From an uncultured Acidimicrobiia bacterium (GTDB lineage: Bacteria; Actinomycetota; Acidimicrobiia; Spongiisociales; UBA5794), in NCBI GenBank assembly GCA_963823505.1, contig CAWGLY010000004.1, forward strand, positions 68,807 to 132,806: DNA of 64,000 nucleotides, in the 5' to 3' direction. How positions within the stretch are numbered: the stretch's first letter is position 1; each line of letters begins with the position of its first letter. The notes beneath the pieces are model-generated. The model was not told where the DNA came from and did no database searches. It saw only the letters and a list, made by a program, of their open reading frames with translations. Shown piece by piece: positions 5,964 through 30,882 of the stretch. Both the position numbers and the translations under genes were made by a program.

Positions 5964-6187
5964 GGTCTTCACGTCGCACGCTCCTCTTTCGCACGGTCTA
6001 CCGCACTTCGAGGGGGCCCAGGAATCGGGCGATGACACCGGCGTGATCGGGCGAGGTATGGCCACGCGGATGAGCCGCAAGGCTCATCGTGTGTGGACGG
6101 CCTGCCGCGTACCGTGGCGGCATGGGCCGAATCGTTGGAATGGATCGTGGCCGGGAACCCCGTGACGTCGCACGGCGTCCGACCTTC

Positions 6188-7486: not shown

Positions 7487-7555
7487 TTCCCGACCCGGGT
7501 CTGGCGCCTCATTTGCGCCGCCACAGCCGGTCGTGGTGTCAGATCGGGCCTGACC

Positions 7556-7668
7556 GTGTGTCGTACCTATGTCAGCAGCGAGTGAGGATTCGGGCAGACG
7601 GCGGGACGAAGGTCTCAGTACCAACGGCGGATGAACGGGGCTCCTACGGGGCCCCCTCCGCATTTCTG
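7556..7668 (+). repeat. repeated structured element, copy B (short variant)
   Basis: Core gtgtcgtacctatgtcagcagcgagtgaggattcg, then the 3' hairpin ggggctcc-tac-ggggcccc (G-U wobble compatible), then ctccgcatttctgg. Confidence 0.6.
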
Positions 7669-7735
7669 GCCCTCCATCTGGGGGGCAGGGCTGGCCCTCC
7701 ATCTGGGGGGCAGGGCTGGCCCTCCATCTACGCGG
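7668..7735 (+). repeat. 25-bp tandem direct repeat, about 2.6 copies (ggccctccatctggggggcagggct)
   Basis: Two perfect units and a partial third lie immediately 3' of element copy B. Confidence 0.7.
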
Positions 7736-7869
7736 CAGGGATCGCCCCCGGTGGGGGCAACACCGCATGCCAGTGACGGCAACACCCAGTAGCCGGACCG
7801 GGACCCCAAGGCGCACACTTGAACTCTCGGGGATGGTTCGCGCCATCCGTAGCTTCCAATGGGGGAACG

Positions 7870-9291: not shown

Positions 9292-9416
9292 GCAGAGGTT
9301 CGGCCACGCCGGGGAGCGGTTCTGACCCGCATCGGCAACCAGCCGTGTCGATCGGCTAGCTCCCGCGTCTCGGCGCTTCGGCGTAGGATGCGTTTGGGAC
9401 TCGAGAGGGAGACGTC

Positions 9417-10313
9417 ATGAGGGACCGCCGCGGCACCCGCCGCCTTGGAATCGTGCTGTTGTTCGTTCTGGTCGCATCGATGGTTGCCTCGGTCGCCCAT
9501 GCGGCGCCGGCTGCCGGCGTGCACGAGCAGGACGTCGCCATTGCCGCTGGTGACCACGACATACCGGGCACGCTGACGATGCCGCAGGGCGTGCGCGGTC
9601 CGGTGCCTGCCGTGTTGATGTTGCACGGCTTCGGCAGTTCCAAGGACGAGGTTGGCGACATGTACGCCAGGGTTGCCGAGGACCTTGCAGCGCTCGGTGT
9701 CGCCAGCTTGCGTATCGACTTCGCCGGAGCTTCGGATGCCGCGCAGCCGTGGGTGGACAACACCTACGACGGCATGGTGGCGGACGGCAGAGTTGCCTTG
9801 GATTGGCTGATCGACCTCCGCCGCGTCGACGATGACCGCGTTGGCCTGCTCGGCTTCAGCCTGGGGACCAAAGTGGCGATGTCTGTGGCGGGCACCGATC
9901 CTCGGGTGGCGGCCTTTGCGTCGTGGTCGGGAAGTGCGGCCAACGGGAGTGAGGATTTCCAGTTCTACTTCGACGAGTACTACGACGATGCCCTGGCCAA
10001 CGGTTCGGTGGTGGTCGACCTCGGCTTCACCGTTGTCGAGCTCAGTATCGAATGGTTCGAGACGATCGCGGCCTCGAACAACCTCGATCTCATCGCCGGC
10101 TACGACAACCCGATCCTTGCCATCGCCGGCTCGGACGACGCCACGGTGGACCCTCGCTGGTCGAGGACGCTCATCCATGCCGCAGGCAGCGACGACACGA
10201 CGTTGCGGATCATTCGCGGGGCGGACCACATCTATCACGTGCTCAGTCCCGACCAATCCTTCGCCGAACGGGTGATGAGTCTCACCGCCAAGTGGTTTGC
10301 GTCACGCCTCTGA
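9417..10313 (+). CDS. secreted alpha/beta hydrolase (dienelactone hydrolase/peptidase S9-like)
   Basis: Signal peptide present. The nucleophile elbow is GFSLG, and HGFGSSKDE is present. Alpha/beta-hydrolase length. Confidence 0.7.
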   Translation: MRDRRGTRRLGIVLLFVLVASMVASVAHAAPAAGVHEQDVAIAAGDHDIPGTLTMPQGVRGPVPAVLMLHGFGSSKDEVGDMYARVAEDLAALGVASLRIDFAGASDAAQPWVDNTYDGMVADGRVALDWLIDLRRVDDDRVGLLGFSLGTKVAMSVAGTDPRVAAFASWSGSAANGSEDFQFYFDEYYDDALANGSVVVDLGFTVVELSIEWFETIAASNNLDLIAGYDNPILAIAGSDDATVDPRWSRTLIHAAGSDDTTLRIIRGADHIYHVLSPDQSFAERVMSLTAKWFASRL

Positions 10314-10349
10314 GGTGACGCGTTTTCCGCCGCACGCCTGAGGGCCGTC

Positions 10350-12035
10350 TCAGCGGCCGGTGCGGGCACGGATCCTGCGGAGCTGTCCGATCCTGCAGTC
10401 CACGAGGGTGTCCACCTCGGCGGAGGCGGCCGCATGGCCACTGACGGCTTCGACGAAGGCCTTGCCGTCGAGCTCGTACAGCTCGACGTCGGTGAGGGTG
10501 CGCACTGTGGCGGTGCGTTGCACGTGACGCAAGAGAGCGATTTCGCCGATCACGTCACCGGCACCCAAGGTTGTGACGAGCTGGCCATCGTGGACGACCG
10601 TCACCTCACCCGATTCGACGACGAAAACCGCGTTGCCGGCCGCACCCTCGCTGATGATTTCGGTCCCGGCGACAACAGTGCGCTGAGTGAGGCGCCGGGC
10701 GATGCGCTCGAGCGTGGGCACGGGCAACGCCGAGAACATGGGGCTGCGACGAAGCGTGTCGAGGCGTAGGTCGGGCACGTCGACCATCGCGTCGACCTGT
10801 TGCAGCTTCACGAGCACGGCAAGTCCGGCGACCGCCCCGATGACCCCGGAGCCGATCAGCGCCGCCTGCACGCCGAAGGCAACGACTCCCCACGACGCCA
10901 ACGCGGCGCCCACACCGAGAGCGCCCCAGTAGACACCTTCGAATGCCCCGAGCACCCTCCCCAGCTCGTCTTCCGGCACGGTGCGCTGGACCAGGGTCAT
11001 GGCGGCGATGTCCACCTGCGCTCCGGCGACGCCAATGGTGAAATGGGCGATGAGCACCGCAGCGGACACCGGAAGCAGACCATTCGCCGCCAACCCCAAT
11101 CCGAACACCACCACGCCGAGGGCGAGGTAGCGGCCGAAAGGTCGATTGCGGGCGAGCGACGCCATGGCGATGCTGCCGGCCAAGCCGCCGATGCCGAGCA
11201 CGGCGTTGAGCCAGCCGACACCTGCCTCACCCCAATCGATGAGATCAAAAGCCACCACTACCAGCAGCACTTCGCTGACGCCGACGAGGATCGACTCGAA
11301 CGCCCAAGTGCCGATCACCAACCCGGTGCCTGGGTTGCGCCGTATCGCCTTCAGTCCGTCGGCGAACTCACGCACGAAGGCGTTGGCGGTGCCTCGATCT
11401 GACGGCGGGCGACGATCGCTGTGGAGGTTGCCGGCCAGCCCGGCCGCGCCGAGCAAGACGGTGGCCGACACTACGAACACCCACGACGGCTCGGCAACGA
11501 GCAGGATGGCAGCGGCGGTCGCAGGCCCGATGATCGTGCCCAGGTTCTCGGTAGCGCTGGCCAGCGCGTTGGCCGTCGTGAGGTCGCTTGCGCTGCGAGC
11601 CAGCTCAGGCACGAGCGCGCCGTAGGCGGGGTAGAAGGTGGAGGCTGCGACTGCGTCGAGCGCAGCCAGCACGTACACGATGGTGGCAGCCGAGTCGGCT
11701 GAGATCGTATATGCCAGCGCCGCTGCGGTAGCCGTTCTCGCAAGGAATCCCATGGCGAGCACAGTCGACCGGGAGCGGCGGTCGGTGACCACGGCGACCA
11801 GCGGGCCGGACAGCAGCGCCGGCAAGGTTCGCACCACGGTGATGACTCCGACTCCGGCGGCGCCGCCGATGTCGAAGGCGTACACCGACAACGCGACAAG
11901 CACGGCGTACTCGACGGTGTTGTGGGCAAGGGAGGTGAGCTGGAGGCGGCGCAGGTTGCGATCGGCCACGCCGCTGCGGAGCGACGCGACCCGCAATTTC
12001 AGATGAAATACGATGGACGCCAGGTGGCGGGACAC
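10350..12035 (-). CDS. MFS transporter fused to a C-terminal cyclic-nucleotide-binding (Crp-like cNMP) domain
   Basis: About 12 TM helices (MFS), then GTEIISEGAAGNAVFVVESGEVTV...GAGDVIGEIALL, which is typical of a cNMP-binding beta-barrel. An alternative GTG start lies at 11969. Confidence 0.7.
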   Translation of the reverse strand: MSRHLASIVFHLKLRVASLRSGVADRNLRRLQLTSLAHNTVEYAVLVALSVYAFDIGGAAGVGVITVVRTLPALLSGPLVAVVTDRRSRSTVLAMGFLARTATAAALAYTISADSAATIVYVLAALDAVAASTFYPAYGALVPELARSASDLTTANALASATENLGTIIGPATAAAILLVAEPSWVFVVSATVLLGAAGLAGNLHSDRRPPSDRGTANAFVREFADGLKAIRRNPGTGLVIGTWAFESILVGVSEVLLVVVAFDLIDWGEAGVGWLNAVLGIGGLAGSIAMASLARNRPFGRYLALGVVVFGLGLAANGLLPVSAAVLIAHFTIGVAGAQVDIAAMTLVQRTVPEDELGRVLGAFEGVYWGALGVGAALASWGVVAFGVQAALIGSGVIGAVAGLAVLVKLQQVDAMVDVPDLRLDTLRRSPMFSALPVPTLERIARRLTQRTVVAGTEIISEGAAGNAVFVVESGEVTVVHDGQLVTTLGAGDVIGEIALLRHVQRTATVRTLTDVELYELDGKAFVEAVSGHAAASAEVDTLVDCRIGQLRRIRARTGR

Positions 12036-12143: not shown

Positions 12144-12881
12144 CTACGCACCCACCGCTCGAGCCGCCAACGTGGGATACGGCATCGACGTCGCAATCCC
12201 GAATTCCTGCTCGATGCGACGGCAGTAGTTTCTGTGCTCCAGGAGCGCCTCGGCGTGGCGGCCGTCGGCCTCGAGGGCGATGACGAGCAGTTGGGCAAAT
12301 CGGTCGCGCAATGGGTGGGTGTGCACCAGGTCACGCAGCTTGTCCAGGATGCAACTGGCATCGCTCAGACGGATAGCGGCCTCACACACATCGGCGAGCG
12401 CCGACAGACGCAGCTCTTCCAGCCGCGCCACGGCATGATTGAGGAACTCCGCGTAGTGGAGAGTGCCGAAGGCCGGCCCCCGCCACAAGCCGAGTGCCGC
12501 GTCGAGCGTGCGTCGGGCGCCGGCCGGGTCGTCGCCAAGCTGGATCCGGGCCATTCCCGAGAGCCGCTCGAAGCGGACAACATCGGTCTCTTCCGGATCG
12601 ATCGCAAGCAGGTAGCCGCCCGTGGTGGTTTGCACGGCGTCGGCCACAGCAGGTGCGAGCGCACGGAGCCGACTGACGTAGACGTGAACAGCATGCCCGG
12701 GATCTCTCGGAAGATCGTCTTCCCAGAGCGCTTCGATGATGACGTCGATCGAGACCTCGCGTTGTGGATGGAGAGCGAGCAGGGTGAAGACCGTCCGCAC
12801 CTGCCGCCGATGTATTGCGGTTTCTGTGCCATCCAACTCGAGCCGGATTGGGCCTAGGAGACCGATGTTGATGCCGCTCAT
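12144..12881 (-). CDS. SARP/AfsR-family transcriptional regulator (OmpR-type winged helix plus BTAD)
   Basis: INIGLLGPIRLE...RRQVRTVFTLLALH winged-helix region, followed by a BTAD helical domain. Start at MSGINIG. Confidence 0.75.
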   Translation of the reverse strand: MSGINIGLLGPIRLELDGTETAIHRRQVRTVFTLLALHPQREVSIDVIIEALWEDDLPRDPGHAVHVYVSRLRALAPAVADAVQTTTGGYLLAIDPEETDVVRFERLSGMARIQLGDDPAGARRTLDAALGLWRGPAFGTLHYAEFLNHAVARLEELRLSALADVCEAAIRLSDASCILDKLRDLVHTHPLRDRFAQLLVIALEADGRHAEALLEHRNYCRRIEQEFGIATSMPYPTLAARAVGA

Positions 12882-13009
12882 GTCGTCCCCTCTGAAAGAC
12901 GCTCCAGGTGCCGGGTCCTCGTCAGGATGCCCGGACGCCGTCAACCTACGGGAGCGAGCTTGGAAACGACTTGGAATGGGCGGCGCCTCGTACGACTGCG
13001 GTCGAGGCC

Positions 13010-15673
13010 TCAGCGGTCGTCACCGCAGGCAGGGTCAAACCGGCTTTCGCCCATCACGTTCGGCCAGCTCCGCGACAGGTCCCAACCGTCGAGCCACTCG
13101 CAGAGCCGGTCGGGCCAGAGCGTCCACTGTGAGTCCCACACCACGGCTCCACCGTTGATATCGACGGCGACGAGTTCGCGTCCCTCGTCGGCGAACACCA
13201 TCGCTCGGACCGCCCCCGAATGGCGCATCTCCCCGACCTGACTCCACGTTGCGACTTCCCACAGACGGATGGCGTTGTCCTGGCTACCCGAGGCGAGCGT
13301 AAGCCCGTCCGGCGACACGGCCATGCCTCGGATGGCGTTGGTGTGGGCGCTCCAGTCCCGGACGACCGTGCCGGTACCCGCATCGACGACAGTGATGACT
13401 CCCAGTTCGTCGCCGACCGCGACGAGGCCATCGCCCAGCGCAACCACTGCATTGGCCTCGTTTTCGACGATCGGGACATCGATCGTCTGCGTACGGGTCG
13501 TGAGGTCCCAGACGCGCAGATGCCCGTCGGCGCCGGCGGTGGCGAGGGTCTCATCGTCGAGGAAGGTCGCTGCCTTGAAGCCTTTGCGGTCCTCGACGGG
13601 CAAGCCAAAGGCGGGGTAGAGCGGCTGCAACGTGCGGGGATCTCTGATCACGATCGTGTAGTTGCCGCCAACGCTGACGACCGCTTCGCCACCGGGCGCC
13701 GTTTCGATGTCCCAGACGCCGCCCGGATGATCGGCCAAGAAGCGGACCCCTTCTTCGTCGGCAACTCCCAATTCCCCCTCACTCGTCCCGAAATACGCAG
13801 AACCGGGCTCGAGTCCGCTGGTCACGGAAAAGACGTAATCGTCGAGATCGAACGAACGGCCCTCTCCGCTGCTGCGGTCCCAGTGGTAGATCCCCGCCGC
13901 TCCTCCGATCCACGTTGCTTGATCGGTGACCACAACTGACCGGTAGTCGGCGGCGATGCTGCTGGGTGGCGGTTCGGTTCCGAGATGCAGCCGATAGAGA
14001 CGAACGCGATCGCTCACCGCTGCGACGAGAGAGTCGCCACCGGGAGAAAGGGCATGATGCTGCGTCGCCAGTGCTGTCGTGCTCCCGATGGGTACCGGGT
14101 TCGCCAGGTTGCCTTCGCTGTACGTCCACACCAACACCCCACCGGTACCGGACGAGATGAGTGTCCGACCGTCCGGCGAGAAGGACAGCGATCTCTGCTG
14201 GGCGTCCAGCGGGCCGATCGGCAGTCCGACCGGGGCCAGTGTGCCGGCGTCCCGGACGACGAGGGTCCGGTCTTGGTGCCCGGTGATCACATGATCGTCA
14301 CCTGGTGAGAAGGCCGCGCTCCACACAATCTGCTCCAGGTCCCCGAGGTGGTACGCCAGCAGATCTCCGCTCCTGATGTCCCAGGACGCAATCATCAGGG
14401 GAGAGCCCATCGTCAAGAGCCGCTTCCCATCTCCGCTGACGGCGACACGTCGGATCTCGAGCGTCTCGGCCCGTGTCTCCGACTCGGATAGGGGGATCTC
14501 GTCGAGGGCGTATTCCAGGACCATGGAAGGTCCGCCTGGTCCGACGCTGAACAAGGTCACCGAAGCCGTCGTGGCCACCACCACGGCGTCATCTGGGGCG
14601 ACCACGATGTCGACGATGAGATCGTCGGTGTGCATGATGGGCGTCGCGGCGCGTTGATCGACGTCCCACACCAGGATGTTCCCATCGCTGTCGCCCGTCA
14701 CCAATGAGCCATCGTTCGTGAAGGCGATCGCCGAACCATGACCCGAGAGTGGCAGCTCGCCCAAACGGGCCCCGTCGGCGACATCCAGCAGCACCACCTG
14801 ATTGGCTGCACCGGTCACGGCGGCGACGCCGCGGTCCCAGTCGACGGCAACGTGCCCGGCAGCGGATTCGCCGTCATCACCAACCGCTGCACCCCACACC
14901 TCGCGGCCGTTGACGATCCGGCCGATGGGAATCAAGGCCGTCGGCGACGCCTCGATGGCATGCGACTCTGCCAGCCCTATCGCTGCCCCTTCGGTATCGC
15001 CGATGGTCATGAGGTATTCGGCGTCGCCAACCAGCGCAAGTGCCGCCAGCGAGCGCGCCCGTGTCGCCGATGAGGTCGCAAGGACGGCAAGCACCATGGC
15101 GATGAGCGCGGCCGAAGCGAAGGCTCCCATGATCACGCGGCGGCGGGTGCGGCGGGACCGTGCCTCCTGGTCTCGGTGGGTGATTCCCGCATCGATGAAC
15201 TCGCGCTCTGAGCTGGTCAATGGGAACACTGGTTCTGCGGACCACTCCTCGAACTGCAGGAGCCGCCGGCCGCGGGGGAGCAGGTCGGCGTCGCGGGAGC
15301 CCTTCTCCCACTCGTCGACGGCCGCCGTCAGCCGGCGCTGGATGATCAGAGCCTCGCGTTGTTCCGAGATCCACGTCCTCAGCAGCGACCACTCGCGCAG
15401 CAGCGCCTCGTGAGCGACCTCGACCGTCGGGCCGCGGGACACCGGGTCGCGGTCAAACGTCACCAGCCGGGCTTCCCCGTAGTCGCTCAGCACCCGATCC
15501 AGCCCTTCTCTGTCGAGCCCGAGACTGCGAAGCTCAGACAGGCGGACTCGATGCCGCACGTCGTCGGCGTCATCGGTGACGGACACCAAGCGGAGGAACA
15601 CCTGCCGTGCGACCGCCTGGGTCGGCGCATCGAGACTCGGCGTAGATCTGCGTGGCTCGCTGTTCGACGGCAC
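13010..15673 (-). CDS. C-terminal part of the same giant protein: STAND helical region, transmembrane segment, WD40 beta-propeller repeats
   Basis: It begins, in the adjacent frame, with QAVARQVFLRLVSV, the canonical continuation of nSTAND NTPases. Multiple WD40 repeats end in WD/WS dipeptides (IRLWEV, LRVWDL, ILVWDV). Confidence 0.7.
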   Translation of the reverse strand: MPSNSEPRRSTPSLDAPTQAVARQVFLRLVSVTDDADDVRHRVRLSELRSLGLDREGLDRVLSDYGEARLVTFDRDPVSRGPTVEVAHEALLREWSLLRTWISEQREALIIQRRLTAAVDEWEKGSRDADLLPRGRRLLQFEEWSAEPVFPLTSSEREFIDAGITHRDQEARSRRTRRRVIMGAFASAALIAMVLAVLATSSATRARSLAALALVGDAEYLMTIGDTEGAAIGLAESHAIEASPTALIPIGRIVNGREVWGAAVGDDGESAAGHVAVDWDRGVAAVTGAANQVVLLDVADGARLGELPLSGHGSAIAFTNDGSLVTGDSDGNILVWDVDQRAATPIMHTDDLIVDIVVAPDDAVVVATTASVTLFSVGPGGPSMVLEYALDEIPLSESETRAETLEIRRVAVSGDGKRLLTMGSPLMIASWDIRSGDLLAYHLGDLEQIVWSAAFSPGDDHVITGHQDRTLVVRDAGTLAPVGLPIGPLDAQQRSLSFSPDGRTLISSGTGGVLVWTYSEGNLANPVPIGSTTALATQHHALSPGGDSLVAAVSDRVRLYRLHLGTEPPPSSIAADYRSVVVTDQATWIGGAAGIYHWDRSSGEGRSFDLDDYVFSVTSGLEPGSAYFGTSEGELGVADEEGVRFLADHPGGVWDIETAPGGEAVVSVGGNYTIVIRDPRTLQPLYPAFGLPVEDRKGFKAATFLDDETLATAGADGHLRVWDLTTRTQTIDVPIVENEANAVVALGDGLVAVGDELGVITVVDAGTGTVVRDWSAHTNAIRGMAVSPDGLTLASGSQDNAIRLWEVATWSQVGEMRHSGAVRAMVFADEGRELVAVDINGGAVVWDSQWTLWPDRLCEWLDGWDLSRSWPNVMGESRFDPACGDDR

Positions 15674-18557
15674 CGCGAACTCCGCCGACGCTGTTGTAGG
15701 CGGCGACGGTGATCGAGCCGTCGGTCGATGCTGCTACCAGACCGGCCAGCACGAACTGCATGAGCGGAAGTGCCCCCGGTTGGCCGCGCACGTCGGCCAC
15801 GATACGATCCGCCAGCCCCGGCTCGAGACGAATCCCTGCGGCTTCAGCCGGGCGGACGATGGCCTCGGTGAGCTGGTCGGCGTCGGGCGTTCCGATGGCC
15901 AGGTGCGCATCCCGGACTCGCCCAGACAGCATGTCGTCGACGAGCGGCCGGTCGAAGAAGTCGGCGCGTATCGTTGCGACGACCTCGAGCCGTGACTGTG
16001 GAGCATCCACAGCCTCGACGAGCGCCGCGACGAAAGCCCGGCGAGTGGCTTCGTCGGTGAGCGAATACAACTCCTCGAACTGGTCGATGACGAGCACGAG
16101 ATCGCCGCGGACTCCCTCCACTATGCGTGCGACGAGCCGCGAGAGCCCATCCACATGTGAGCGAAGACTGTCCGCAGCATTCTCCAGCGGCGTCGTCGCG
16201 ACCCGGCCCAGTGCGGTGGCGAGCTCATCGAACGGATGTTTGCCCGGCGTCATCACCACCGAGGTCCAAGTTGCGACGTTCCGGCCATGGTTCGAGGACA
16301 ACGCCGGCAGCAACCCGGCCCGCACCAGAGAGGACTTGCCCGATCCCGACGGTCCGACCACCGTCACGAACCGATGGTGGGCGACGAGGTCGGCGAGCTG
16401 CTGGATCTCGGTGTTCCGTCCGTAGAAGTCGCGGGCGTCCGCGACGTCGAATGCGGCCAGTCCCTTGTACGGGTTGCGTACCGCCACGGCAGCTACCGGG
16501 CCTGGGGAGACCGACAGGTCGCCGGCAGACTGCAGCGCCTCCAGGAACTCGCCAACGGACCCAAAGCGCTCACTCGGGTCTACGGCGCAAGCTCGCCGCA
16601 GCGCGTCGGCCATGCCGTGGGGGAGCTGGTCGGTGCCGGCGGTGTCGGGAAATCGACCCGTCAACAAAGCGACAGCCACCGCTCCGAGTGAGTAGATGTC
16701 GGTGCGCTCGTCGATGGGATCCCCGGAGCGCTCCTCGGGCGCCCGGAACGTGGGGGCCGTGGTCGGAATCTCGGAGACCTGTTTCAGGGTCGGTAGGGCA
16801 ACGCCGAAGTCGGCGACATAGGCATTGCCGTCCGCATCGAGGAGGATGTTGGCCGGTTTGATGTCGCGGTGGATCACCCCCTCCCGGTGGGCGTAGCTGA
16901 GCGCCGAGCCGACCTGAGCCAGCAACGTCATCGCACGCTCGACGGTCATCTCCCGGTCGGTTGCGTCGGCCAGGCTGCCGCCTGCCATGTGGGGCATCAC
17001 GAAGTAGGCCCCTTCGGCGTCACGCCAGAAATCGTGGAGGGAGACGATGTGGGGGTGCTCCAGCCTGGCGACGAGGCGGGCTTCGCTTTCGAACCTGCGC
17101 ACGTACTCGGGGTGGTTGGCGAAGTCGCCACGGATTGCCTTGATGGCGACCTCGCGGCCGACAGACGGCTGGTATGCCCGGTAGACCACGCCGAAGCGGC
17201 CGGCGCCGATCCGTTCTCGCAGCTCGTAGCCGCGGATGGCGTCGCCGGACCCACGTCCCATCTCGGTTGCGGAGGCGTCGGTGCGGAGAGCTGGGAAGTC
17301 GGAGTTCATGCCCTCTGCAACGAGTTGATACGCCGGCAGCGGCGCACCCAGCCCACGAAAGCCATGCTCGCCGAGGTTCAAGATCTGGATGCCGGCCTCG
17401 CTACGCAGTGCGTCCCGGGCCGCCTCAGTCAGGACGATTTGGCCAGGATGACCGGCGGCCATGAACCGCAACGCTCGGAGTAGCGGGGGGCCGTGGAAGT
17501 CACCGGCCTGGGCCTCCACCTCTCCGGCGTCAATCGCCATCCGGACCTCGACGGGCACGAGTCGGTCCCCTTCTGAGTTGAGCCGCCGATGGGCTGCGAC
17601 CGCCACCGTGGCGGCAGATCGCACGTCGGCAAACGCCGCCACGGTGGTGTCGCCGGTCCTGCGAAAGATCCGACCGCCGGCTGCTTCCACTGCGTCGGTG
17701 ATGACCCGGTCGTGAAGCGCCATTGCTTCGCGTACAGCCTCGCTGCGGAGCTCCCAGAGCTCGGCCGGCACCGAGACGTCGACGGCCAGGAACGTCACGT
17801 TCTGGGTCACCACGTCAGACGCACGCAGCAGATCCGGATCGTGGGTCAAGATCCGATGCTCGAGGTCCTGCAGTTCTGGCGAAGGGTCGACGCCGAGTTC
17901 TTCAACGAGCACATCACGGGTCGCCTGATAGGCGCGCAACGCTTCCGCTTGGCGCCCGTCGCGATAGAGGGCGAGCATGTGGCGCGCACGGGACCCTTCG
18001 TTCAGTGGGTGCTCCGCTGCCAGTGCTTCCAACTCGCCGATCACCTCACGGTGCCGGCCGTTGGCGAGATCGGCGTCGATGCGCGCCATCACAGTGGCGA
18101 TCCGCAAGTCCTCGAGTCGGCGCACTTCACCCTCGAGGCCTGGCACGTCGACGAGGTCCGCGTACGGCCGTCCCCGCCACAACGACAAGGCCTCCCGTAG
18201 CCGCTCGGCAGCTGCGGGTGCGTTGGTCGCCACCAGATCACGACCTTCGCTCGCCAGGCTCTCGAAGAGGACAGCATCGATGTCACCAGGCGTGGCCTCG
18301 AGTCGGTAGGTGCCGCCGTTCCGTTCGATACCGCCACCCAACACCGCTCTGAGGTTTGACACGTAGGAGTGGATCGAAGCGCGCACGGCACTCGGTGGCG
18401 ACTCACCCCACACCCCGTCGATGATCTGGTCTGTGGACACGGGTTTGGTGGCGGCGGCGATCAGCATCGCCAACACCGCACGCTGCTTGGGTCCGCCCAG
18501 TGGTGCAGGCGTCCCGTCGGACTCTGCAGCCATCGGCCCCAGCACCAGGAACCTCAT
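15570..18557 (-). CDS. N-terminal part of a giant signalling protein: SARP/BTAD, class III adenylate/guanylate cyclase, Ser/Thr protein kinase, STAND P-loop NTPase (reading frame broken at its 3' end)
   Basis: SARP region: MRFLVLGPMAAESDG...WRGRPYADL. Cyclase domain: VTFLAVDVSVP...RRTGDTTVAAFAD. Kinase motifs: GAGRFGVVYRA, HRDIKPANILL, DFGVA. Walker A: VVGPSGSGKSSLVRAGLLPAL. The ORF ends at a frameshift; see the finding. Confidence 0.75.
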   Translation of the reverse strand: MRFLVLGPMAAESDGTPAPLGGPKQRAVLAMLIAAATKPVSTDQIIDGVWGESPPSAVRASIHSYVSNLRAVLGGGIERNGGTYRLEATPGDIDAVLFESLASEGRDLVATNAPAAAERLREALSLWRGRPYADLVDVPGLEGEVRRLEDLRIATVMARIDADLANGRHREVIGELEALAAEHPLNEGSRARHMLALYRDGRQAEALRAYQATRDVLVEELGVDPSPELQDLEHRILTHDPDLLRASDVVTQNVTFLAVDVSVPAELWELRSEAVREAMALHDRVITDAVEAAGGRIFRRTGDTTVAAFADVRSAATVAVAAHRRLNSEGDRLVPVEVRMAIDAGEVEAQAGDFHGPPLLRALRFMAAGHPGQIVLTEAARDALRSEAGIQILNLGEHGFRGLGAPLPAYQLVAEGMNSDFPALRTDASATEMGRGSGDAIRGYELRERIGAGRFGVVYRAYQPSVGREVAIKAIRGDFANHPEYVRRFESEARLVARLEHPHIVSLHDFWRDAEGAYFVMPHMAGGSLADATDREMTVERAMTLLAQVGSALSYAHREGVIHRDIKPANILLDADGNAYVADFGVALPTLKQVSEIPTTAPTFRAPEERSGDPIDERTDIYSLGAVAVALLTGRFPDTAGTDQLPHGMADALRRACAVDPSERFGSVGEFLEALQSAGDLSVSPGPVAAVAVRNPYKGLAAFDVADARDFYGRNTEIQQLADLVAHHRFVTVVGPSGSGKSSLVRAGLLPALSSNHGRNVATWTSVVMTPGKHPFDELATALGRVATTPLENAADSLRSHVDGLSRLVARIVEGVRGDLVLVIDQFEELYSLTDEATRRAFVAALVEAVDAPQSRLEVVATIRADFFDRPLVDDMLSGRVRDAHLAIGTPDADQLTEAIVRPAEAAGIRLEPGLADRIVADVRGQPGALPLMQFVLAGLVAASTDGSITVAAYNSVGGVRGAVEQRATQIYAESRCADPGGRTAGVPPLGVRHR

Positions 18558-18807: not shown

Positions 18808-19131
18808 TCAGTACAGGATGTCGAGTGCGTAGCGAAGCGCCCGGTCGACCGCCATCCGTTGGCCCTCATCGAGGCGACCGACGGGAGCGTCGTCGAGCGA
18901 ACTCGCAGGCACCGTGATCACGTTGTCACAATTCACTGCGCACGGTTCTGGGAGGCCTTGATCGGGCCCGATCTCGACCTCGGACCGAATCCCCCTGATC
19001 GTGCGTGTGATCGGAGCACACGTGACCGAGGTCAGCACCGCGATCGCTGCGTTTCGTGTGAGTACACACACAGGCCTTCGACCAGCCGGCGGGCCGAGGT
19101 CAGCCCAGTAGATGTCGTTGCGAGCTACCAC
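18808..19131 (-). CDS. mazF: type II toxin MazF/PemK-family mRNA interferase
   Basis: DIYWADLGPPAGRRPVCVLT is typical of MazF. It overlaps the upstream antitoxin by 7 nt. Confidence 0.75.
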   Translation of the reverse strand: MVARNDIYWADLGPPAGRRPVCVLTRNAAIAVLTSVTCAPITRTIRGIRSEVEIGPDQGLPEPCAVNCDNVITVPASSLDDAPVGRLDEGQRMAVDRALRYALDILY

Positions 19132-27720: not shown

Positions 27721-30700
27721 GTGGAGATTCGCATCCTGGGCCCGATCGAGGCGACTGCCGGCGGCGAAGCATTGCCGCTCGGCGGGCTGCGGGAACGTGC
27801 CCTCTTGGCGGTCATGGCGCTGTCGCCCGGCCGGGTGCTCGGTTCGGACCGCCTGATCGACGAGCTGTGGGGCGAGGATCTCCCCGCCAATCCGGCCAAT
27901 GCCCTGCAGGCTCTGGTGTCGCGGCTGCGGCGGTCGGTTGGCGCCGAGGTCATCGTCACGCGCCCTCCGGGATACGTGCTCGACGTCCCGCCCGATGCGG
28001 TCGACGCCGTGCGTTTCCGGACCATGGTCGCGGCAGCACGACACGAGCCCGACCCGGCCGAGCGCGGGCGGCGATACCGGCAGGCGCTGGCGCTGTGGCG
28101 GGGACCGGCCCTGGCCGAGTTCACCGGCGAGGAGTCTCTCGTCCGTGAGCGCGCCCTCCTCGAGGAGCTGCGGTTGCAGGCCGTCGAAAGCCGAATCGCC
28201 GCGGATCTGGAGGTTGGAGACGCATCTGAGGTCGTTCCGGAGTTGGAACGGCTCATCGCCGATCACCCGTTGCGCGAGGGTCTGCGAGCCAGCCACATGC
28301 TGGCCTTGTACCGGCAGGGGAGACAGGCAGACGCGCTGCGCGCGTACACCGAGGCGAGCCGCCTCCTCGGCGAGGAGCTCGGCATCGAACCGGGCCCGGA
28401 GCTGCGGGCGATGGAGGAGGCGATCCTCATGCAAGAGCCCCGCCTGGGGGCGATGCCCGTCACGAGTCCACGGCGAGTGGCGGCACCGGCCCTTCCCGCC
28501 CGTATCGCCAGTTTTGTCGGACGGACCGAGGAGATGGCAGAGGTACGGGCTGCCTTCGGTGGGAGCCGTCTCGTCACGCTGACCGGAGCGGGCGGGGCCG
28601 GCAAGACCAGCCTCGCGATCGAGGCGGCTCGCGCGCTCGAGCAGGAGTATCCAGATGGGGTGTGGCTGATCGAGCTGGCACCGGTGATGGAGGCGACCAG
28701 CGTTCCCGACGCCTTGGTGGCGGCGCTCCACCTCGAGCTCGGTGGCGAGATCCGGGGGCGGCACGACCTCGATCCACTCGTCGCCGTGGTCGAGTTTCTC
28801 CGGCATCGCTCCGCGTTGCTCATCCTCGACAACTGTGAACACGTGGTGCACGCTGCGGCGGCGGCCGCTGAGCAGGTGCTGCTGGCGTGTCCGGCGGTCG
28901 ACGTGCTCGCCACGAGCCGGGATCGCCTTGGCATCCCTGGCGAGGTCTTGTGGCGGGTGCCGCCGCTCGGCGTAGGCGACGACCGGTCGGATGCGGTGAC
29001 GCTGTTCGTGGAACGGGCCCGGGCAGTCAATCCCTCGTTTGCACCCGATGCCGACGATGTGGCCGCCGTCGCCGATATCTGCCGGAGGGTCGACGGCATG
29101 CCGCTGGCGATCGAGCTGGCCGCCGCCCGCACCAGGACGCTGGCGGTCCACGAGATCGCCAGGCGGCTCCACGACGGCATCGGCGTCCTCAGCGGCGGCC
29201 CTCGCCACGGGTCGAAGCGGCAACAAACGCTGGCCGCAACGATCGACTGGAGCTATCGCCTGCTGCGTTCCGAGGATCGTGAGCTGTTCGCCCGGCTGGC
29301 GGCGTTCCGCAACAGCTTCTCCCTCGAGGCGGCGGAGAACGTGGCGCCTACGGGCTGGACGGCAGCGGCGGTTCTCGAGTCGATGGAGCGCCTCATCGAC
29401 GCCTCGATGGTGGCGCCTGTAGCGGCGGTGGCCTCGATGCGATACCGACTGTTGGACACGCTCGCCGCCTACGCAAGCGAACGGCTTGCCGAGACCGACG
29501 AGACCGACGAGGTCATCGCACGATTGCTCGACCACTACCTGGGCATGGTGGCGGATGCCGAAGACGGTCTGCGCGGTCCTGAGCAGCTCGAATGGATCGA
29601 ACGGATCGAAGCCGATCTCCCCACGGTGCGCAGCGTGCTCGATTGGGCTGCATCGCATGAGCCCACCGAGGGGTTGCGGCTGGCAGGGATGCTCGGTTGG
29701 TTCTGGTACCTGAGGGGCAGCGGCCAGGAAGCGCGGCAGCACTTCGAGACCTTGCTCGACGCAGTGGGCGAGGCAGTCGACGCTCGGACCCGGGCGCAGG
29801 CGCTCTTCTTCCGTGCGCTCCACGACCCGCACATCGAGGCAGCCCGGGAGGATTTTGAGGCTGCTCGCGACGCCTATCTCGAGGCCGGCGACACTGCTGG
29901 GGTGGCGCACTCGCTTGCGATGATGGCCGCATGGGGCTTCGATCGTGTGGAGACCGGGGCACTCATCGAAGAAGCTGCGGCGTTGTGCGCCGAGTCCGGC
30001 TACGCGTGGGGGGCGGCGCTGATCAGCTTCCTCTCGGCGGGCGTTGCCGCGGTCGCCAACGATGTCGACGCATCGGCCCGGTTCGCCGAGGATGCCGCAA
30101 CGCGGTTCGCTGCGCTCGGCGACCGCTGGGGACAGGGGTACAGCCTCTACTCGCTCGGCGTGGCCAGGCGTGCCATGGGTGACTATCCCGGAGCGTCTGC
30201 GGCGCTACTCGCCGCGCTGGATCATGCGCGCCCGATGCGGCTGCGCAGGGAGATGGCGCCGGTGCTGAGTGAGCTGGCCAGCATCGCCATGATGCAAGGC
30301 GAGTTCGCAGAGGCAGCGAGTCTCCTCGCCAGGGCACGGGAGTATGCGGATGAGGTTCCGTTCGCCGGGTCGCAGGGCATGGTGCGCAACGCCCAGGGTC
30401 GCCTTGCGCGCCTCCAGGGGGATCACGAGTCGGCGCGGCGGCTGCACCGTGAGGCGGTGGCGTTGTACGAGGAGAGCCGCAATCCGGGTGGGCTGGCCTA
30501 CTCGCTGTCGTGTCTGGGGTTCGCCGAGGAGTGGGGAGGTGACTTTGCGGCCGCGACGCGCCATCACCTCGATGCGCTGCACCACGCCGAGGCGTCCGGC
30601 GACGTGTTCGCCGTAGCGCTGGCGTTGGAGGGCGTGGGGGCAGCGGCGATCGTTGCGGGGGACGCCGGGCGCGGGGTGACGCTGGTGCATGCCGGGTTGG

Positions 30701-30882
30701 CGCTCCGCGAGGCCGCCGGTGTGCCGCTGCCGCCGGGCGAGTGGGTGGAGGTCGAGCGGGCGTTCGACGCCGCGCAGCACGTCCTCACTGCCGACGAGAT
30801 GGAGGCGGCTCGACAGTCAGCTCGCCGCCTGGACCTCGATCAGGCGACGGCGCTGGCTCGGCAGCAGCACCAAGCGCCGTGA
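27721..30882 (+). CDS. large SARP/AfsR-family regulator: winged helix plus BTAD, NB-ARC ATPase, TPR repeats
   Basis: Winged-helix region VEIRILGPIEATAGG, a BTAD domain, Walker A GAGGAGKTSLA, and a long TPR-like C-terminus. GTG start. Confidence 0.8.
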   Translation: MEIRILGPIEATAGGEALPLGGLRERALLAVMALSPGRVLGSDRLIDELWGEDLPANPANALQALVSRLRRSVGAEVIVTRPPGYVLDVPPDAVDAVRFRTMVAAARHEPDPAERGRRYRQALALWRGPALAEFTGEESLVRERALLEELRLQAVESRIAADLEVGDASEVVPELERLIADHPLREGLRASHMLALYRQGRQADALRAYTEASRLLGEELGIEPGPELRAMEEAILMQEPRLGAMPVTSPRRVAAPALPARIASFVGRTEEMAEVRAAFGGSRLVTLTGAGGAGKTSLAIEAARALEQEYPDGVWLIELAPVMEATSVPDALVAALHLELGGEIRGRHDLDPLVAVVEFLRHRSALLILDNCEHVVHAAAAAAEQVLLACPAVDVLATSRDRLGIPGEVLWRVPPLGVGDDRSDAVTLFVERARAVNPSFAPDADDVAAVADICRRVDGMPLAIELAAARTRTLAVHEIARRLHDGIGVLSGGPRHGSKRQQTLAATIDWSYRLLRSEDRELFARLAAFRNSFSLEAAENVAPTGWTAAAVLESMERLIDASMVAPVAAVASMRYRLLDTLAAYASERLAETDETDEVIARLLDHYLGMVADAEDGLRGPEQLEWIERIEADLPTVRSVLDWAASHEPTEGLRLAGMLGWFWYLRGSGQEARQHFETLLDAVGEAVDARTRAQALFFRALHDPHIEAAREDFEAARDAYLEAGDTAGVAHSLAMMAAWGFDRVETGALIEEAAALCAESGYAWGAALISFLSAGVAAVANDVDASARFAEDAATRFAALGDRWGQGYSLYSLGVARRAMGDYPGASAALLAALDHARPMRLRREMAPVLSELASIAMMQGEFAEAASLLARAREYADEVPFAGSQGMVRNAQGRLARLQGDHESARRLHREAVALYEESRNPGGLAYSLSCLGFAEEWGGDFAAATRHHLDALHHAEASGDVFAVALALEGVGAAAIVAGDAGRGVTLVHAGLALREAAGVPLPPGEWVEVERAFDAAQHVLTADEMEAARQSARRLDLDQATALARQQHQAP

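What the first reader, a model, noticed from the sequence alone, without database searches (positions are those of the whole stretch)
13010..18557. About 1850-aa single-polypeptide signalling machine (SARP, adenylate cyclase, Ser/Thr kinase, STAND NTPase, WD40) split by one nucleotide
Two long ORFs on the minus strand overlap at 15570-15673 in adjacent frames. The upstream one ends ...QIYAES. The downstream one reads ...SLDAPTQAVARQVFLRLVSV, the canonical continuation of a STAND NTPase. Removing one T from GCC GAG T CTC GAT restores a continuous frame. The reconstructed protein joins a DNA-binding SARP/BTAD module, a class III nucleotidyl cyclase, a Hanks-type kinase, a P-loop STAND core, a TM segment and a WD40 propeller. 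That combination and order is unusual. Mycobacterial cyclases such as Rv0386 carry AC, NB-ARC, TPR and HTH in a different order. Either a regulator that integrates cAMP synthesis, phosphorylation and NTP-dependent oligomerisation has been inactivated, or this is a sequencing indel.
Basis: partly seen in the sequence, partly recalled or inferred. Interest (0 to 1): 0.8.

Follow-up and report, generated by a model that had tools for sequence, protein, structure and literature searches.

The report
Frameshifted giant SARP–kinase–STAND–WD40 receptor gene
The two long reverse-strand reading frames are one roughly 1,850-residue signalling gene broken by a single extra base; the gene belongs to a large but unstudied family of actinobacterial membrane receptors, so the break is ordinary and the domain combination is not rare.

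Summary
ORFs 15570-18557 and 13010-15673 on the minus strand are two halves of one gene. Removing the T at window base 15635 gives an 1848-aa protein that aligns without a gap to over 100 intact homologs.

The domain order is:
- SARP (wHTH plus BTAD)
- class III cyclase-homology domain
- Hanks kinase
- nSTAND1 NTPase
- one transmembrane helix
- tandem WD40 propellers

The claim that the architecture is unusual is not supported:
- 110 of the 120 closest database proteins are full-length proteins over 1700 aa with this layout.
- About 77 of the best 150 cluster representatives at 50% identity carry it.
- A further 50 representatives have the same layout without the cyclase.
- The named hits come from Acidimicrobiia, Thermoleophilia and Gaiellaceae metagenome-assembled genomes.

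No relative is split at this point.

In this copy the cyclase is degenerate (K299R, N360L, phosphate-binding motif lost). The kinase and P-loop motifs are intact.

A real recent inactivating mutation and an assembly indel cannot be separated without reads. I lean slightly towards a real mutation.

The more interesting result concerns the whole family. A conserved transmembrane helix and paired C-terminal cysteines predict an extracytoplasmic WD40 sensor. That would make these proteins membrane-spanning STAND receptors, a class no paper I found describes.

The parts
13010..18557 (-). Whole gene, including the stop codon at 13010-13012. It encodes 1848 aa once base 15635 is skipped.
   Evidence: The repaired protein aligns over aa 1-1099 at about 61% identity to P0001 and P0002, and over the full length at 42% to P0006.
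15635..15635 (-). The extra nucleotide: T on the minus strand, within GAG-T-CTC. It causes the frame change between codons 974 (Glu) and 975 (Leu). It is not in a homopolymer.
15570..15634 (-). Out-of-frame tail of the upstream ORF (SRCADPGGRTAGVPPLGVRHR, then stop TGA at 15570-15572). It has no homology to any relative.
   Evidence: In one search the matches of relatives end at query residues 971-985, mostly 972-977.
18333..18494 (-). OmpR-type winged helix-turn-helix DNA-binding domain (aa 22-75) of the SARP module.
   Evidence: Pfam Trans_reg_C, E 1.1e-8, 35.4 bits against a cutoff of 26.2.
17847..18281 (-). BTAD (bacterial transcriptional activator domain), aa 93-237.
   Evidence: Pfam PF03704, E 4.5e-44, full profile 1-146.
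17298..17810 (-). Class III nucleotidyl-cyclase homology domain (aa ~250-420), catalytically degenerate in this copy. The six catalytic positions read D260, R299, D303, D353, L360, R364. The canonical set is D-K-D-D-N-R.
   Evidence: - No Pfam PF00211 hit at E<=1.
- NCBIfam LipJ cyclase, E 2.4e-8.
- PDB class III cyclases 3mr7, 4wp3 (Ma1120) and 1ybt (LipJ), E 1e-9 to 1e-4.
- Hexad comparison with 120 homologs.
16488..17228 (-). Hanks-type Ser/Thr protein kinase domain (aa 444-~690), with all catalytic motifs intact.
   Evidence: Pfam Pkinase, E 6.4e-43. K473, E492, H563-R564-D565, N570, D583-F584-G585 and E608 are present and match the family consensus.
15287..16472 (-). nSTAND1 NTPase module (aa 696-1090). 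Walker A GPSGSGKS is at 16332-16355 and Walker B VLVIDQFEE at 16071-16097. The frameshift cuts it between the NTPase core and the winged-helix part that carries the conserved VAHEAL motif.
   Evidence: Pfam PF20703, 388 bits, profile 1-378 of 379. Motifs are invariant in 118 homologs. The AF2 model of the downstream part starts with a winged-helix fold.
15077..15136 (-). Predicted single transmembrane helix (aa 1141-1160, VIMGAFASAALIAMVLAVLA), preceded by RSRRTRRR. It lies inside a 70-residue continuous helix (aa 1115-1184, window 15005-15214).
   Evidence: - Kyte-Doolittle 19-residue mean of 2.59, the only such segment in the protein apart from one marginal window at aa 1313 (1.67).
- All 110 full-length homologs have one hydrophobic segment at the same position.
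- AF2 models a long helix here.
13133..14902 (-). Tandem WD40 beta-propellers (aa ~1219-1808, about 14 blades).
   Evidence: - Pfam WD40, 102 bits, 5 stretches.
- AF2 model with pLDDT 90.5 and pTM 0.77.
- Foldseek best hits are double seven-bladed propellers: 2ymu, 1nr0, 4nsx; Apaf-1 3sfz also matches.
13013..13126 (-). C-terminal helical cap (aa 1811-1848) carrying the only two cysteines of the post-membrane part, C1819 and C1844.
   Evidence: A C-terminal cysteine pair was present in all six homologs whose C-terminal sequence was inspected (P0001, P0002, P0005, P0006, P0016, P0033).

Best explanation
The two ORFs are one gene.

Shown:
- The gene is a member of a large family of about 1,850-1,950-residue proteins. 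The named database hits come from Acidimicrobiia, Thermoleophilia and Gaiellaceae metagenome-assembled genomes.
- It is interrupted by a single extra T at window base 15635, inside the nSTAND1 NTPase module.

Inferred for this locus:
- I take the extra base as a real and recent inactivating mutation, so the locus is a young pseudogene. No second lesion has accumulated.
- The cyclase module had already lost catalytic residues before the break.

Inferred mechanism for the intact protein:
- The N-terminal ~1,140 residues are cytoplasmic: SARP DNA-binding module, cyclase, Ser/Thr kinase and nSTAND1 NTPase.
- A single transmembrane helix follows.
- The two WD40 propellers with a disulfide-capped C-terminus lie outside the membrane and act as the ligand sensor.
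- Ligand-driven clustering, together with NTP-dependent oligomerisation of the STAND module, would bring the cytoplasmic modules together.
- All three output modules are of kinds that work when brought together. Class III cyclases form their active sites across a dimer. Hanks kinases trans-autophosphorylate. SARPs bind tandem direct repeats at promoters.
- The outputs would therefore be transcription activation, phosphorylation and, in most family members, cAMP.

Consequence of the frameshift:
- The upstream product would be a soluble 974-residue fragment with 21 junk residues. It would lack the winged-helix part of the NTPase, the membrane anchor and the sensor.
- The rest of the gene would need an internal restart to be made at all.
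For: One gene, one extra base:
-.
- nSTAND1 is matched end to end only after repair.
- Homology of all relatives to the upstream ORF stops at residues 971-985, mostly 972-977.

A widespread family, always as a single ORF:
- 110 of the 120 top hits are over 1700 aa.
- About 77 full-architecture clusters appear among the 150 best representatives.
- No relative of the downstream ORF starts at the split point. Every hit apart from the source record's own P0122 is 951-1551 aa and has nSTAND1 listed among its Pfam domains.

A real lesion rather than an error:
- The inserted base is not in a homopolymer.
- The other ~55 kb of coding sequence in the window shows no isolated frame break. Housekeeping genes give full-length Pfam matches.
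- The same window holds another decayed gene, an HsdR-like gene with at least one frameshift. This genome therefore carries real pseudogenes.
- This copy has 27 departures at 321 columns conserved in at least 93% of sequences. The median is 5, and 9 of the 27 fall in the cyclase. N360L is unique among the 121 sequences.
- Broken copies of the family recur in other assemblies: P0085, P0099 and P0117.

Topology and mechanism:
- There is a single strongly hydrophobic helix after an arginine cluster.
- That helix is conserved in 110 of 110 homologs.
- It is present in 109 of 110 members of the broader kinase/HTH/cyclase-nSTAND1-WD40 set.
- Cysteine density is 5.2 per 1000 residues after the helix and 1.8 before it. 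The number of cysteines after the helix is even in 109 of 110 homologs.
- The AF2 model shows a 70-residue helix and then two propellers.
- The kinase and Walker motifs are intact.
- The cyclase hexad D-K-D-D-N-R is kept in 99 of 120 homologs.
Against: Real lesion versus error:
- No reads are available, so a consensus or assembly indel cannot be excluded.
- Apart from this one base the 5.5-kb gene is flawless. It keeps a strong codon-usage signal on both sides and intact kinase and P-loop motifs. That is exactly what an assembly error in a live gene would look like.
- The elevated divergence may be a lineage trait. P0006 is an intact ORF and the closest relative of the C-terminal half, and it has 65 departures.

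Topology and mechanism:
- The topology rests on hydrophobicity, the positive-inside rule and cysteine statistics, not on experiment.
- The even cysteine count partly reflects one inherited cysteine pair, so the homologs are not independent observations.
- No member of the family has been studied. No conserved gene neighbourhood gives functional hints.
Confidence: 0.5

Rival explanations
1. Sequencing or assembly indel. The organism carries an intact 1848-codon gene, and the extra T exists only in the consensus of the metagenome-assembled contig. Everything said about the family and the mechanism would still hold, and the protein would be functional.
For: - There is only one lesion in 5.5 kb.
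- Codon-position composition and codon usage are fully coding-like on both sides.
- All kinase and NTPase catalytic motifs are intact.
- The sequence sits on a 137,948-bp contig deposited in NCBI/ENA with unnamed proteins, which looks like a metagenome-assembled genome.
- Other members of the family in assemblies also end in out-of-frame tails: P0085, P0099 and P0117. That is compatible with error-prone assembly of long GC-rich genes.
- From my own knowledge and untested here: the insertion lies within GAGTC/TCGA, sequence contexts that match known methyltransferase motifs, where nanopore base-calling errors cluster.
Against: - The base is not in a homopolymer, the usual site of indel errors.
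- No isolated frame break was seen in the other genes of the window, so the per-base indel rate of this assembly looks low.
- The only other broken region, the HsdR-like gene, carries several breaks clustered in 3.6 kb. That looks like real decay rather than scattered error.
Confidence: 0.4
2. A genuine, functional two-gene arrangement. A soluble SARP-cyclase-kinase-NTPase-core protein and a separately translated membrane protein (winged helix, transmembrane helix, WD40) would work together as a split receptor.
For: - The source record annotates two proteins, P0121 of 995 aa and P0122 of 863 aa.
- GTG codons occur in the downstream frame near the junction. One, at 15673, is preceded by GGAG with a 5-nt spacer.
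Against: - No relative is split here. Apart from P0122 itself, all 119 listed hits to the downstream ORF have nSTAND1 listed among their Pfam domains, and most also carry an N-terminal kinase, HTH or cyclase module.
- All full-length homologs are single ORFs.
- The cut falls inside a single Pfam domain, between the NTPase core and its winged-helix subdomain.
- The GGAG is simply the conserved Gly-Gly-Val codons present in all homologs.
- The upstream ORF ends in 21 residues with no homology.
Confidence: 0.05
3. Programmed +1 ribosomal frameshifting. It would produce the full-length protein from the split frames and allow regulated expression.
For: A +1 shift is formally what is needed, and the 0 frame stays open for 21 more codons.
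Against: - There is no slippery or stop-codon-stimulated motif at GAG UCU CGA.
- The site is not conserved. Every one of more than 100 homologs reads straight through in one frame with no indel at this position.
Confidence: 0.02

Closest known systems
Uncharacterised database family annotated as 'protein kinase', 'BTAD domain-containing putative transcriptional regulator' or 'serine/threonine protein kinase/DNA-binding SARP family transcriptional activator/WD40 repeat protein' (for example P0001, P0002, P0005, P0006; Acidimicrobiia, Thermoleophilia and Gaiellaceae MAGs)
   Same: - Same domain order over the whole length.
- 55-61% identity over aa 1-1100 to P0001 and P0002.
- 42% identity over the full length to P0006.
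- Same transmembrane helix position and same C-terminal cysteine pair.
   Different: - This copy is frameshifted at codon 974/975.
- Its cyclase hexad is D-R-D-D-L-R where the family has D-K-D-D-N-R.
- Its closest relative in the WD40 part, P0006, has lost the cyclase residues altogether (E-A-R-E-A-G). In the sequence of P0006 the kinase HRD motif reads HGD.
AfsR-type 'large SARP' regulators of Streptomyces (SARP, NB-ARC-type NTPase, TPR); structure paper PMC10936776, cited in PMC13581612
   Same: - Both have an N-terminal OmpR-type wHTH plus BTAD, followed by a STAND-class P-loop NTPase and a C-terminal repeat sensor.
- The logic of NTP-dependent control of a SARP activator is the same.
- A canonical example, SARP-AAA-TPR of 1053 aa, lies in the same window at 27721..30882. 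Its SARP module is 43% identical to this one.
   Different: - The NCBIfam AfsR model matches only the first 250 residues (185 bits against a cutoff of 1430).
- The NTPase is nSTAND1, not NB-ARC.
- The sensor is WD40, not TPR.
- A cyclase and a kinase are inserted between the SARP and the NTPase.
- A transmembrane helix separates the NTPase from the sensor.
Kinase-nSTAND1-WD40, XRE-HTH-nSTAND1-WD40 and cyclase-nSTAND1-WD40 proteins of Chloroflexota, Myxococcota and Cyanobacteria. nSTAND1 was defined in Kaur et al., eLife 2021 (PMC8195603).
   Same: - Same nSTAND1, hydrophobic helix and tandem WD40 chassis.
- 25-30% identity over 90-98% of the downstream ORF.
- The hydrophobic helix is present in 109 of 110.
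   Different: - They carry a single N-terminal output module and are 1,300-1,550 aa long. Here three modules (SARP, cyclase, kinase) are stacked.
- PMC8195603 discusses nSTAND1 in the context of conflict systems with effector-associated domains, not transcription factors.
Receptor Ser/Thr kinases with an extracellular beta-propeller, such as M. tuberculosis PknD (comparison from my own knowledge)
   Same: Cytoplasmic Hanks kinase, single transmembrane helix and extracytoplasmic beta-propeller sensor. This is an analogous topology.
   Different: - The NCBIfam PknD model scores 107 bits against a cutoff of 839, so this is not a member.
- The PknD propeller is of the NHL type.
- PknD has no SARP, cyclase or STAND module.
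Mycobacterial cyclase-NTPase-TPR-LuxR proteins (Rv0386 type) and the TOMM kinase/cyclase fusion (TIGR03903)
   Same: A class III cyclase and/or a kinase combined with a STAND-like ATPase and a repeat domain in one polypeptide.
   Different: - TIGR03903 scores 115 bits against a cutoff of 706, so this is not a member.
- The domain order is different, and the DNA-binding domain is of a different type and position (LuxR at the C-terminus there, SARP at the N-terminus here).
- Those proteins have no transmembrane helix and no WD40.
- The Rv0386 comparison rests on memory only.
Apaf-1 (PDB 3sfz)
   Same: The AF2 model of the downstream part (winged helix, helical region, two propellers) aligns to full-length Apaf-1 over 939 alignment columns, E 2.6e-28.
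   Different: - TM-scores are low (0.27-0.32) and the similarity is driven by the propellers.
- Apaf-1 is soluble and its propellers bind a cytosolic ligand and fold back on the NOD. Here a predicted membrane-spanning helix intervenes.

Membership tests
SARP (Streptomyces antibiotic regulatory protein) DNA-binding module | OmpR-type winged HTH (Pfam Trans_reg_C) directly followed by BTAD (PF03704) | tested here: met
   Trans_reg_C covers aa 22-75 at 35.4 bits (cutoff 26.2). BTAD covers aa 93-237 at 150.8 bits (cutoff 22.1), full profile.
AfsR equivalog (NCBIfam NF053617) | Whole-protein score above the curated cutoff, which implies the SARP plus NB-ARC plus TPR architecture | tested here: not met
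   184.9 bits against a cutoff of 1430. Only model positions 29-278 of 986 are matched.
nSTAND1 NTPase (PF20703) | Full-length match to the profile, with Walker A GxxGxGKS and Walker B hhhhDQFEE | tested here: met
K741, D825 and E828 are present and invariant in 118 homologs.
Class III nucleotidyl cyclase (PF00211) | Sequence membership by Pfam gathering score | tested here: not met
   There is no PF00211 hit at E<=1 on aa 238-450. Homology is shown only by NCBIfam LipJ (E 2.4e-8) and by PDB cyclases 3mr7 and 4wp3 (E ~1e-9). Many homologs do carry PF00211.
Class III nucleotidyl cyclase (PF00211) | Catalytic hexad: two metal-binding Asp, substrate-specifying Lys and Asp, transition-state Asn and Arg | tested here: not met
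   This copy reads D260-R299-D303-D353-L360-R364. 99 of 120 homologs have D-K-D-D-N-R. No homolog has Leu at the Asn position. The (G/D)-S-T motif after the first Asp is replaced by V-P-A. The assignment of roles to these positions follows established knowledge of class III cyclases.
Hanks-type Ser/Thr protein kinase (PF00069) | Profile match plus the catalytic residues: Gly-loop, VAIK Lys, alphaC Glu, HRD, Asn, DFG, APE | tested here: met
   147.5 bits against a cutoff of 31.7. All listed residues are present.
WD40 beta-propeller | WD40 repeats that fold into propellers | tested here: met
   PF00400 scores 102.4 bits in 5 stretches. The AF2 model has pLDDT 90.5 with about 14 four-stranded blades. 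The best Foldseek hits are tandem seven-bladed WD40 proteins.
Single-pass membrane receptor (N-in, C-out) | One transmembrane helix, positive-inside flank, extracytoplasmic C-terminal domain | tested here: inconclusive
   - Hydrophobic segment at aa 1141-1160, Kyte-Doolittle mean 2.59, after RSRRTRRR.
- Conserved in 110 of 110 homologs.
- Cysteine enrichment and an even cysteine count after the helix.
- There is no experimental or dedicated topology-predictor test.
TOMM kinase/cyclase fusion (TIGR03903) | Whole-protein score above the cutoff | tested here: not met
   114.7 bits against a cutoff of 705.75.
PknD-type receptor kinase (NCBIfam PRK13184) | Whole-protein score above the cutoff | tested here: not met
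   107.3 bits against a cutoff of 839. Only the kinase domain is matched.
Pseudogene (real frameshift) | The extra base is present in the organism's DNA | not testable with these tools
   No reads are available. The source contig could not be retrieved. No ortholog closer than 61% identity exists in any collection searched.
Conserved split or programmed frameshift | Relatives share the split or a frameshift signal at the same position | tested here: not met
   All 118 aligned homologs are continuous with no indel at the junction. No stand-alone homolog of the downstream ORF was found.

The most novel reading that the evidence does not exclude
The family, of which this locus is one broken member, may be an undescribed class of membrane-spanning STAND receptors. 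An extracytoplasmic, disulfide-capped double WD40 propeller would be coupled through one transmembrane helix to a cytoplasmic nSTAND1 NTPase. That NTPase would drive up to three outputs in the same polypeptide: SARP transcription activation, Ser/Thr phosphorylation and cAMP synthesis. Known STAND proteins such as Apaf-1, NLRs, MalT, AfsR and Avs are described as soluble sensors of intracellular ligands. A STAND module that reads an extracellular signal would therefore be a new signalling logic. It would also apply to the much larger kinase/HTH/cyclase-nSTAND1-WD40 group in Chloroflexota, Myxococcota and Cyanobacteria.
Probability: 0.4. Interest if true: 0.6.

Novelty: new member of a known kind. 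Interest (0 to 1): 0.3.

Why it matters
For this locus, little. It is a single-base break in one copy of a gene family already represented hundreds of times in public databases. It should be annotated as a frameshifted gene or pseudogene rather than as two proteins, which is how the source record has it.

For the family, it matters more:
- These are among the largest one-polypeptide signalling proteins in Actinomycetota.
- No paper found in the searched library describes them.
- The conserved transmembrane helix and cysteine pattern suggest that a STAND NTPase is being used as a transmembrane receptor module. That idea can be tested directly with topology reporters and with an intact homolog such as P0001.

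Tried and rejected
- **Searching for an intact or identically split close ortholog.** I searched the 5.8-billion protein collection, GTDB species genomes and JGI metagenome contigs. Nothing was closer than 61% identity, so the frameshift cannot be judged by comparison.
- **Retrieving the source contig to learn the assembler or sample.** Look-ups of P0121, P0122 and P0243 all returned 'not on record'. Cluster names gave no organism.
- **Looking for a conserved gene neighbourhood.** The contexts of P0006, P0002 and P0005 share nothing with each other or with this window. The adjacent cNMP-binding MFS transporter and small SARP are therefore not conserved partners.
- **Looking for other frameshifts as a gauge of assembly quality.** Six same-strand overlapping ORF pairs turned out to be unrelated adjacent genes. 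Only the HsdR-like region is also broken.
- **Comparing nSTAND1 with solved structures by sequence.** Only trivial P-loop matches to ABC ATPases and UvrA appeared.
- **Literature.** Searches for the architecture gave nothing specific: SARP+WD40+kinase+STAND; BTAD+WD40+adenylate cyclase; STAND NTPase+transmembrane helix+WD40. nSTAND1 appears only in five papers, none treating this family.
- **Programmed frameshifting and a functional split.** I rejected both for lack of any conservation.


Full report
**Observation**

The window has two long ORFs on the minus strand. ORF 15570..18557 encodes 995 aa and ORF 13010..15673 encodes 887 aa. They overlap by 104 nt in adjacent frames.

Deleting the T after GAG gives a single 1848-codon frame with no internal stop. 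tblastn of the repaired protein against the window places aa 1-974 on 18557..15636 and aa 975-1848 on 15634..13013. The skipped base is therefore 15635.

Two further lines locate the break at the same place:
- A codon-usage Viterbi segmentation trained on the other long genes of the window switches frame at 15634/15635.
- In an exhaustive HMMER search of 1.84 billion cluster representatives, the matches of full-length relatives to the 995-aa ORF end at query residues 971-985, mostly 972-977. The last ~20 residues are out-of-frame junk.

The repaired junction ...RATQIYAE|LDAPTQAVARQVFLRLV... aligns without a gap to 15 homologs. One inserted nucleotide is therefore more parsimonious than a 2-nt deletion. 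The inserted T is not in a homopolymer.

**What the gene encodes**

Pfam on the repaired protein gives the following:

| Module | Residues | Score |
|---|---|---|
| Trans_reg_C | 22-75 | 35.4 bits |
| BTAD | 93-237 | E 4.5e-44 |
| Pkinase | 444-639 | E 6.4e-43 |
| nSTAND1 | 696-1090 | E 8.9e-116, profile 1-378 of 379 |
| WD40 | several stretches between ~1240 and 1810 | 102 bits |

The nSTAND1 match runs straight across the junction, so the frameshift cuts a single domain.

The segment between BTAD and the kinase does not reach Pfam PF00211 even at E<=1. It is nevertheless homologous to class III cyclases. NCBIfam LipJ matches at E 2.4e-8. The PDB cyclases 3mr7, Ma1120 (4wp3) and LipJ (1ybt) match at E 1e-9 to 1e-4.

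I aligned this segment with the 120 best homologs and read off the six catalytic positions of class III cyclases. These are two metal-binding Asp, substrate Lys and Asp, and transition-state Asn and Arg; the role assignment follows established knowledge. 99 of 120 homologs have D-K-D-D-N-R. This copy has D260-R299-D303-D353-L360-R364. It has also lost the (G/D)-S-T motif after the first Asp. No other sequence has Leu at the Asn position. The 'adenylate cyclase' of this copy is thus a degenerate cyclase-homology domain.

The kinase and the NTPase are in good order. The kinase keeps every catalytic motif: Gly-loop, K473, E492, HRD 563-565, N570, DFG 583-585 and APE. The NTPase keeps Walker A K741 and Walker B D825/E828.

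**Membrane helix and sensor**

The only strongly hydrophobic segment of the protein is aa 1141-1160. Its 19-residue Kyte-Doolittle mean is 2.59, and it is preceded by RSRRTRRR; one marginal window at aa 1313 scores 1.67. All 110 full-length homologs have exactly such a segment about 405 residues after Walker A. So do 109 of 110 members of the broader nSTAND1-WD40 set found with the downstream ORF.

The DNA-binding, kinase and ATPase modules must be cytoplasmic. A single membrane pass would therefore put the C-terminal ~690 residues outside the membrane.

Cysteine statistics fit this topology:
- The cytoplasmic part is nearly free of cysteine, at 1.8 per 1000 residues, against 5.2 after the helix.
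- This copy has one cysteine before the helix and two after it, C1819 and C1844. Both lie in a C-terminal cap.
- A C-terminal cysteine pair was present in all six homologs whose C-termini I inspected.
- 109 of 110 homologs have an even number of cysteines after the helix.

The even count is supportive rather than decisive, because it partly reflects one inherited pair.

An AlphaFold2 model of the annotated downstream protein (P0122, 863 aa), built with a 90-sequence alignment, is confident (pLDDT 90.5, pTM 0.77). In order it shows:
- a winged-helix fold,
- a helical region,
- one continuous 70-residue helix containing the hydrophobic segment,
- about 14 beta-blades,
- two terminal helices.

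The best Foldseek hits in the PDB are tandem seven-bladed WD40 proteins (2ymu, Aip1 1nr0, Utp21 4nsx). Full-length Apaf-1 (3sfz) also matches. By sequence the nSTAND1 module has no solved relative.

**How common the architecture is**

- The 120 best hits in a 5.8-billion protein collection are almost all 1,850-1,950-residue proteins with BTAD, Pkinase, nSTAND1 and WD40, and most also have PF00211. Where a source names them, they come from Acidimicrobiia, Thermoleophilia and Gaiellaceae metagenome-assembled genomes. JGI annotates them as 'serine/threonine protein kinase/DNA-binding SARP family transcriptional activator/WD40 repeat protein'.
- Identity is 55-61% over aa 1-1100 to the best of them. 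Only P0006 resembles the WD40 half, at 44%.
- Among the 150 best cluster representatives at 50% identity, about 77 carry the complete SARP-cyclase-kinase-nSTAND1-C-terminal layout. A further 50 carry the same layout without the cyclase, at about 1,700 aa.
- The downstream ORF also finds a much wider set in Chloroflexota and elsewhere. There the same nSTAND1-helix-WD40 chassis carries a kinase alone, an XRE-type HTH or a cyclase at the N-terminus.

The combination is therefore a populated family built on a modular chassis, not a rarity.

No paper in the searched library treats it. nSTAND1 was named in Kaur et al. 2021 (PMC8195603) in the context of conflict systems. The 2026 STAND survey (PMC13581612) mentions transcription-factor STANDs such as AfsR only as non-defence examples.

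**Real mutation or artefact**

This cannot be settled here. No reads are available. The source contig could not be retrieved. No ortholog closer than 61% exists in the protein collection, the GTDB genomes or the JGI metagenomes.

The source record annotates two proteins, P0121 and P0122, on a 137,948-bp contig.

For a real lesion:
- The base is not in a homopolymer.
- The rest of the window shows no isolated frame break, and housekeeping genes give full-length domain matches.
- A second gene in the window is clearly decayed. This is an HsdR-like type I restriction subunit. Its SWI2_SNF2 profile match stops at position 144 in one frame and resumes at 144 in another, and it shows several further frame changes.
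- This copy departs from family-invariant residues more than most: 27 departures at 321 conserved columns against a median of 5, and 9 of the 27 fall in the cyclase.

For an artefact:
- There is a single lesion in 5.5 kb.
- Coding statistics are perfect on both sides.
- Kinase and P-loop motifs are intact.
- Several other members of the family in public assemblies also end in out-of-frame tails: P0085, P0099 and P0117.

I put a real, recent pseudogene at about 0.5 and an assembly error at about 0.4.

A working two-gene split and programmed +1 frameshifting are both unlikely. No relative is split or carries an indel at this site. The cut falls inside one domain. There is no frameshift-prone motif.

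**Mechanism (inferred)**

The family looks like a single-pass receptor. An extracytoplasmic double propeller senses a ligand. The signal passes through the long helix to the nSTAND1 NTPase. NTP-dependent oligomerisation of that module would juxtapose the cytoplasmic modules.

Each output is of a kind that is switched on by proximity. Class III cyclases form their active sites across a dimer. Hanks kinases trans-autophosphorylate. SARPs bind tandem repeats at promoters.

Three observations suggest the cyclase is the most dispensable output. It is absent in the ~1,700-aa sister architecture, degenerate in this copy, and fully degenerate in P0006.

In this locus the frameshift would leave a soluble SARP-cyclase-kinase-NTPase-core fragment. 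It would lack the winged-helix subdomain with the conserved VAHEAL motif, the anchor and the sensor. That fragment is most likely non-functional.

Gene neighbourhoods of homologs are not conserved. The neighbouring cNMP-binding MFS transporter and small SARP in this window are probably coincidental.

**Verdict**

'One gene split by one base' is right and the domain list is right, with a degenerate cyclase. 'Unusual architecture' is wrong.
- The locus is a new, broken member of a known but unstudied kind.
- Interest in the locus itself is low.
- The family-level inference of a membrane-spanning STAND receptor is the part worth following up.

Noticed in passing
window 52652-54092 (+), within the wider region 50938-54576: An HsdR-like type I restriction subunit appears broken. 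ORF 52652-53908 matches HSDR_N only from profile position 131 and SWI2_SNF2 over 8-144 of 221. ORF 53580-54092, in another frame, continues SWI2_SNF2 at 144-195 (E 0.003). Codon-usage segmentation shows about ten frame changes in 3.6 kb. The neighbouring N6_Mtase (HsdM-like, 49451-50944) looks intact. This is probably a decayed restriction gene.
   Followed up: partly
window 27721-30882 (+): A canonical 'large SARP' of the AfsR type: Trans_reg_C, BTAD, AAA_16/AAA_22 and TPR, 1053 aa. Its SARP module is 43% identical to that of the frameshifted gene. The two are likely paralogous in the DNA-binding part.
   Followed up: partly
window 12144-12944 (-): A stand-alone small SARP (Trans_reg_C plus BTAD, 266 aa) lies immediately downstream of the big gene on the same strand. 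It is 30% identical to the big gene's N-terminus.
   Followed up: partly
window 10350-12035 (-): An MFS transporter fused to a C-terminal cyclic-nucleotide-binding domain (MFS_1 plus cNMP_binding, 561 aa) lies two genes downstream of a cyclase-containing gene. The pairing is not seen next to the three homologs examined.
   Followed up: partly
window 18808-19131 (-): A MazF/PemK-type toxin gene lies directly upstream of the big gene. Its antitoxin was not looked for.
   Followed up: no
window 58568-61505 (+): A McrBC-like restriction pair: EVE plus AAA_5 (460 aa), followed by DUF2357 plus PDDEXK_7 (530 aa). Together with the type I R-M remnants, a Schlafen AlbA_2 protein (54454-55692) and a RAMA-domain protein (55736-56629), this end of the window looks like a defence island. 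Its GC content is slightly lower, 0.61-0.65.
   Followed up: no
window 32257-34005 (-) and 30891-32225 (-): A CHAT plus VWA protein of 582 aa, whose CHAT match starts only at profile position 108. Next to it lie a Uma2 nuclease (31578-32225) and a VapB antitoxin (31289-31627). ORF 30891-31292, just downstream, was not examined.
   Followed up: no
homologs P0001-P0120 (family alignment): 17 of 118 homologs have Gly in place of Arg, and 17 have Asn in place of Asp, in the kinase HRD motif. These may form a pseudokinase subgroup (the two counts were made per column). P0006 has lost the cyclase residues, and in its sequence the kinase motif reads HGD, yet it keeps an intact 1826-aa ORF.
   Followed up: partly
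L082 (contig_93877 of ERZ25039469), 6001-11522: Homolog P0085 is another broken copy. It is N-terminally truncated and ends out of frame after ...EVAHEA. It is followed by three small unannotated ORFs and an IS110 transposase. P0099 and P0117 also end in out-of-frame, arginine-rich tails.
   Followed up: partly
broader nSTAND1-WD40 proteins P0123-P0241: The hydrophobic helix between nSTAND1 and the WD40 repeats is present in 109 of 110 kinase-, HTH- or cyclase-nSTAND1-WD40 proteins from other phyla. 86 of 110 have an even number of cysteines after it. The predicted membrane-spanning topology may therefore apply to the whole chassis.
   Followed up: partly
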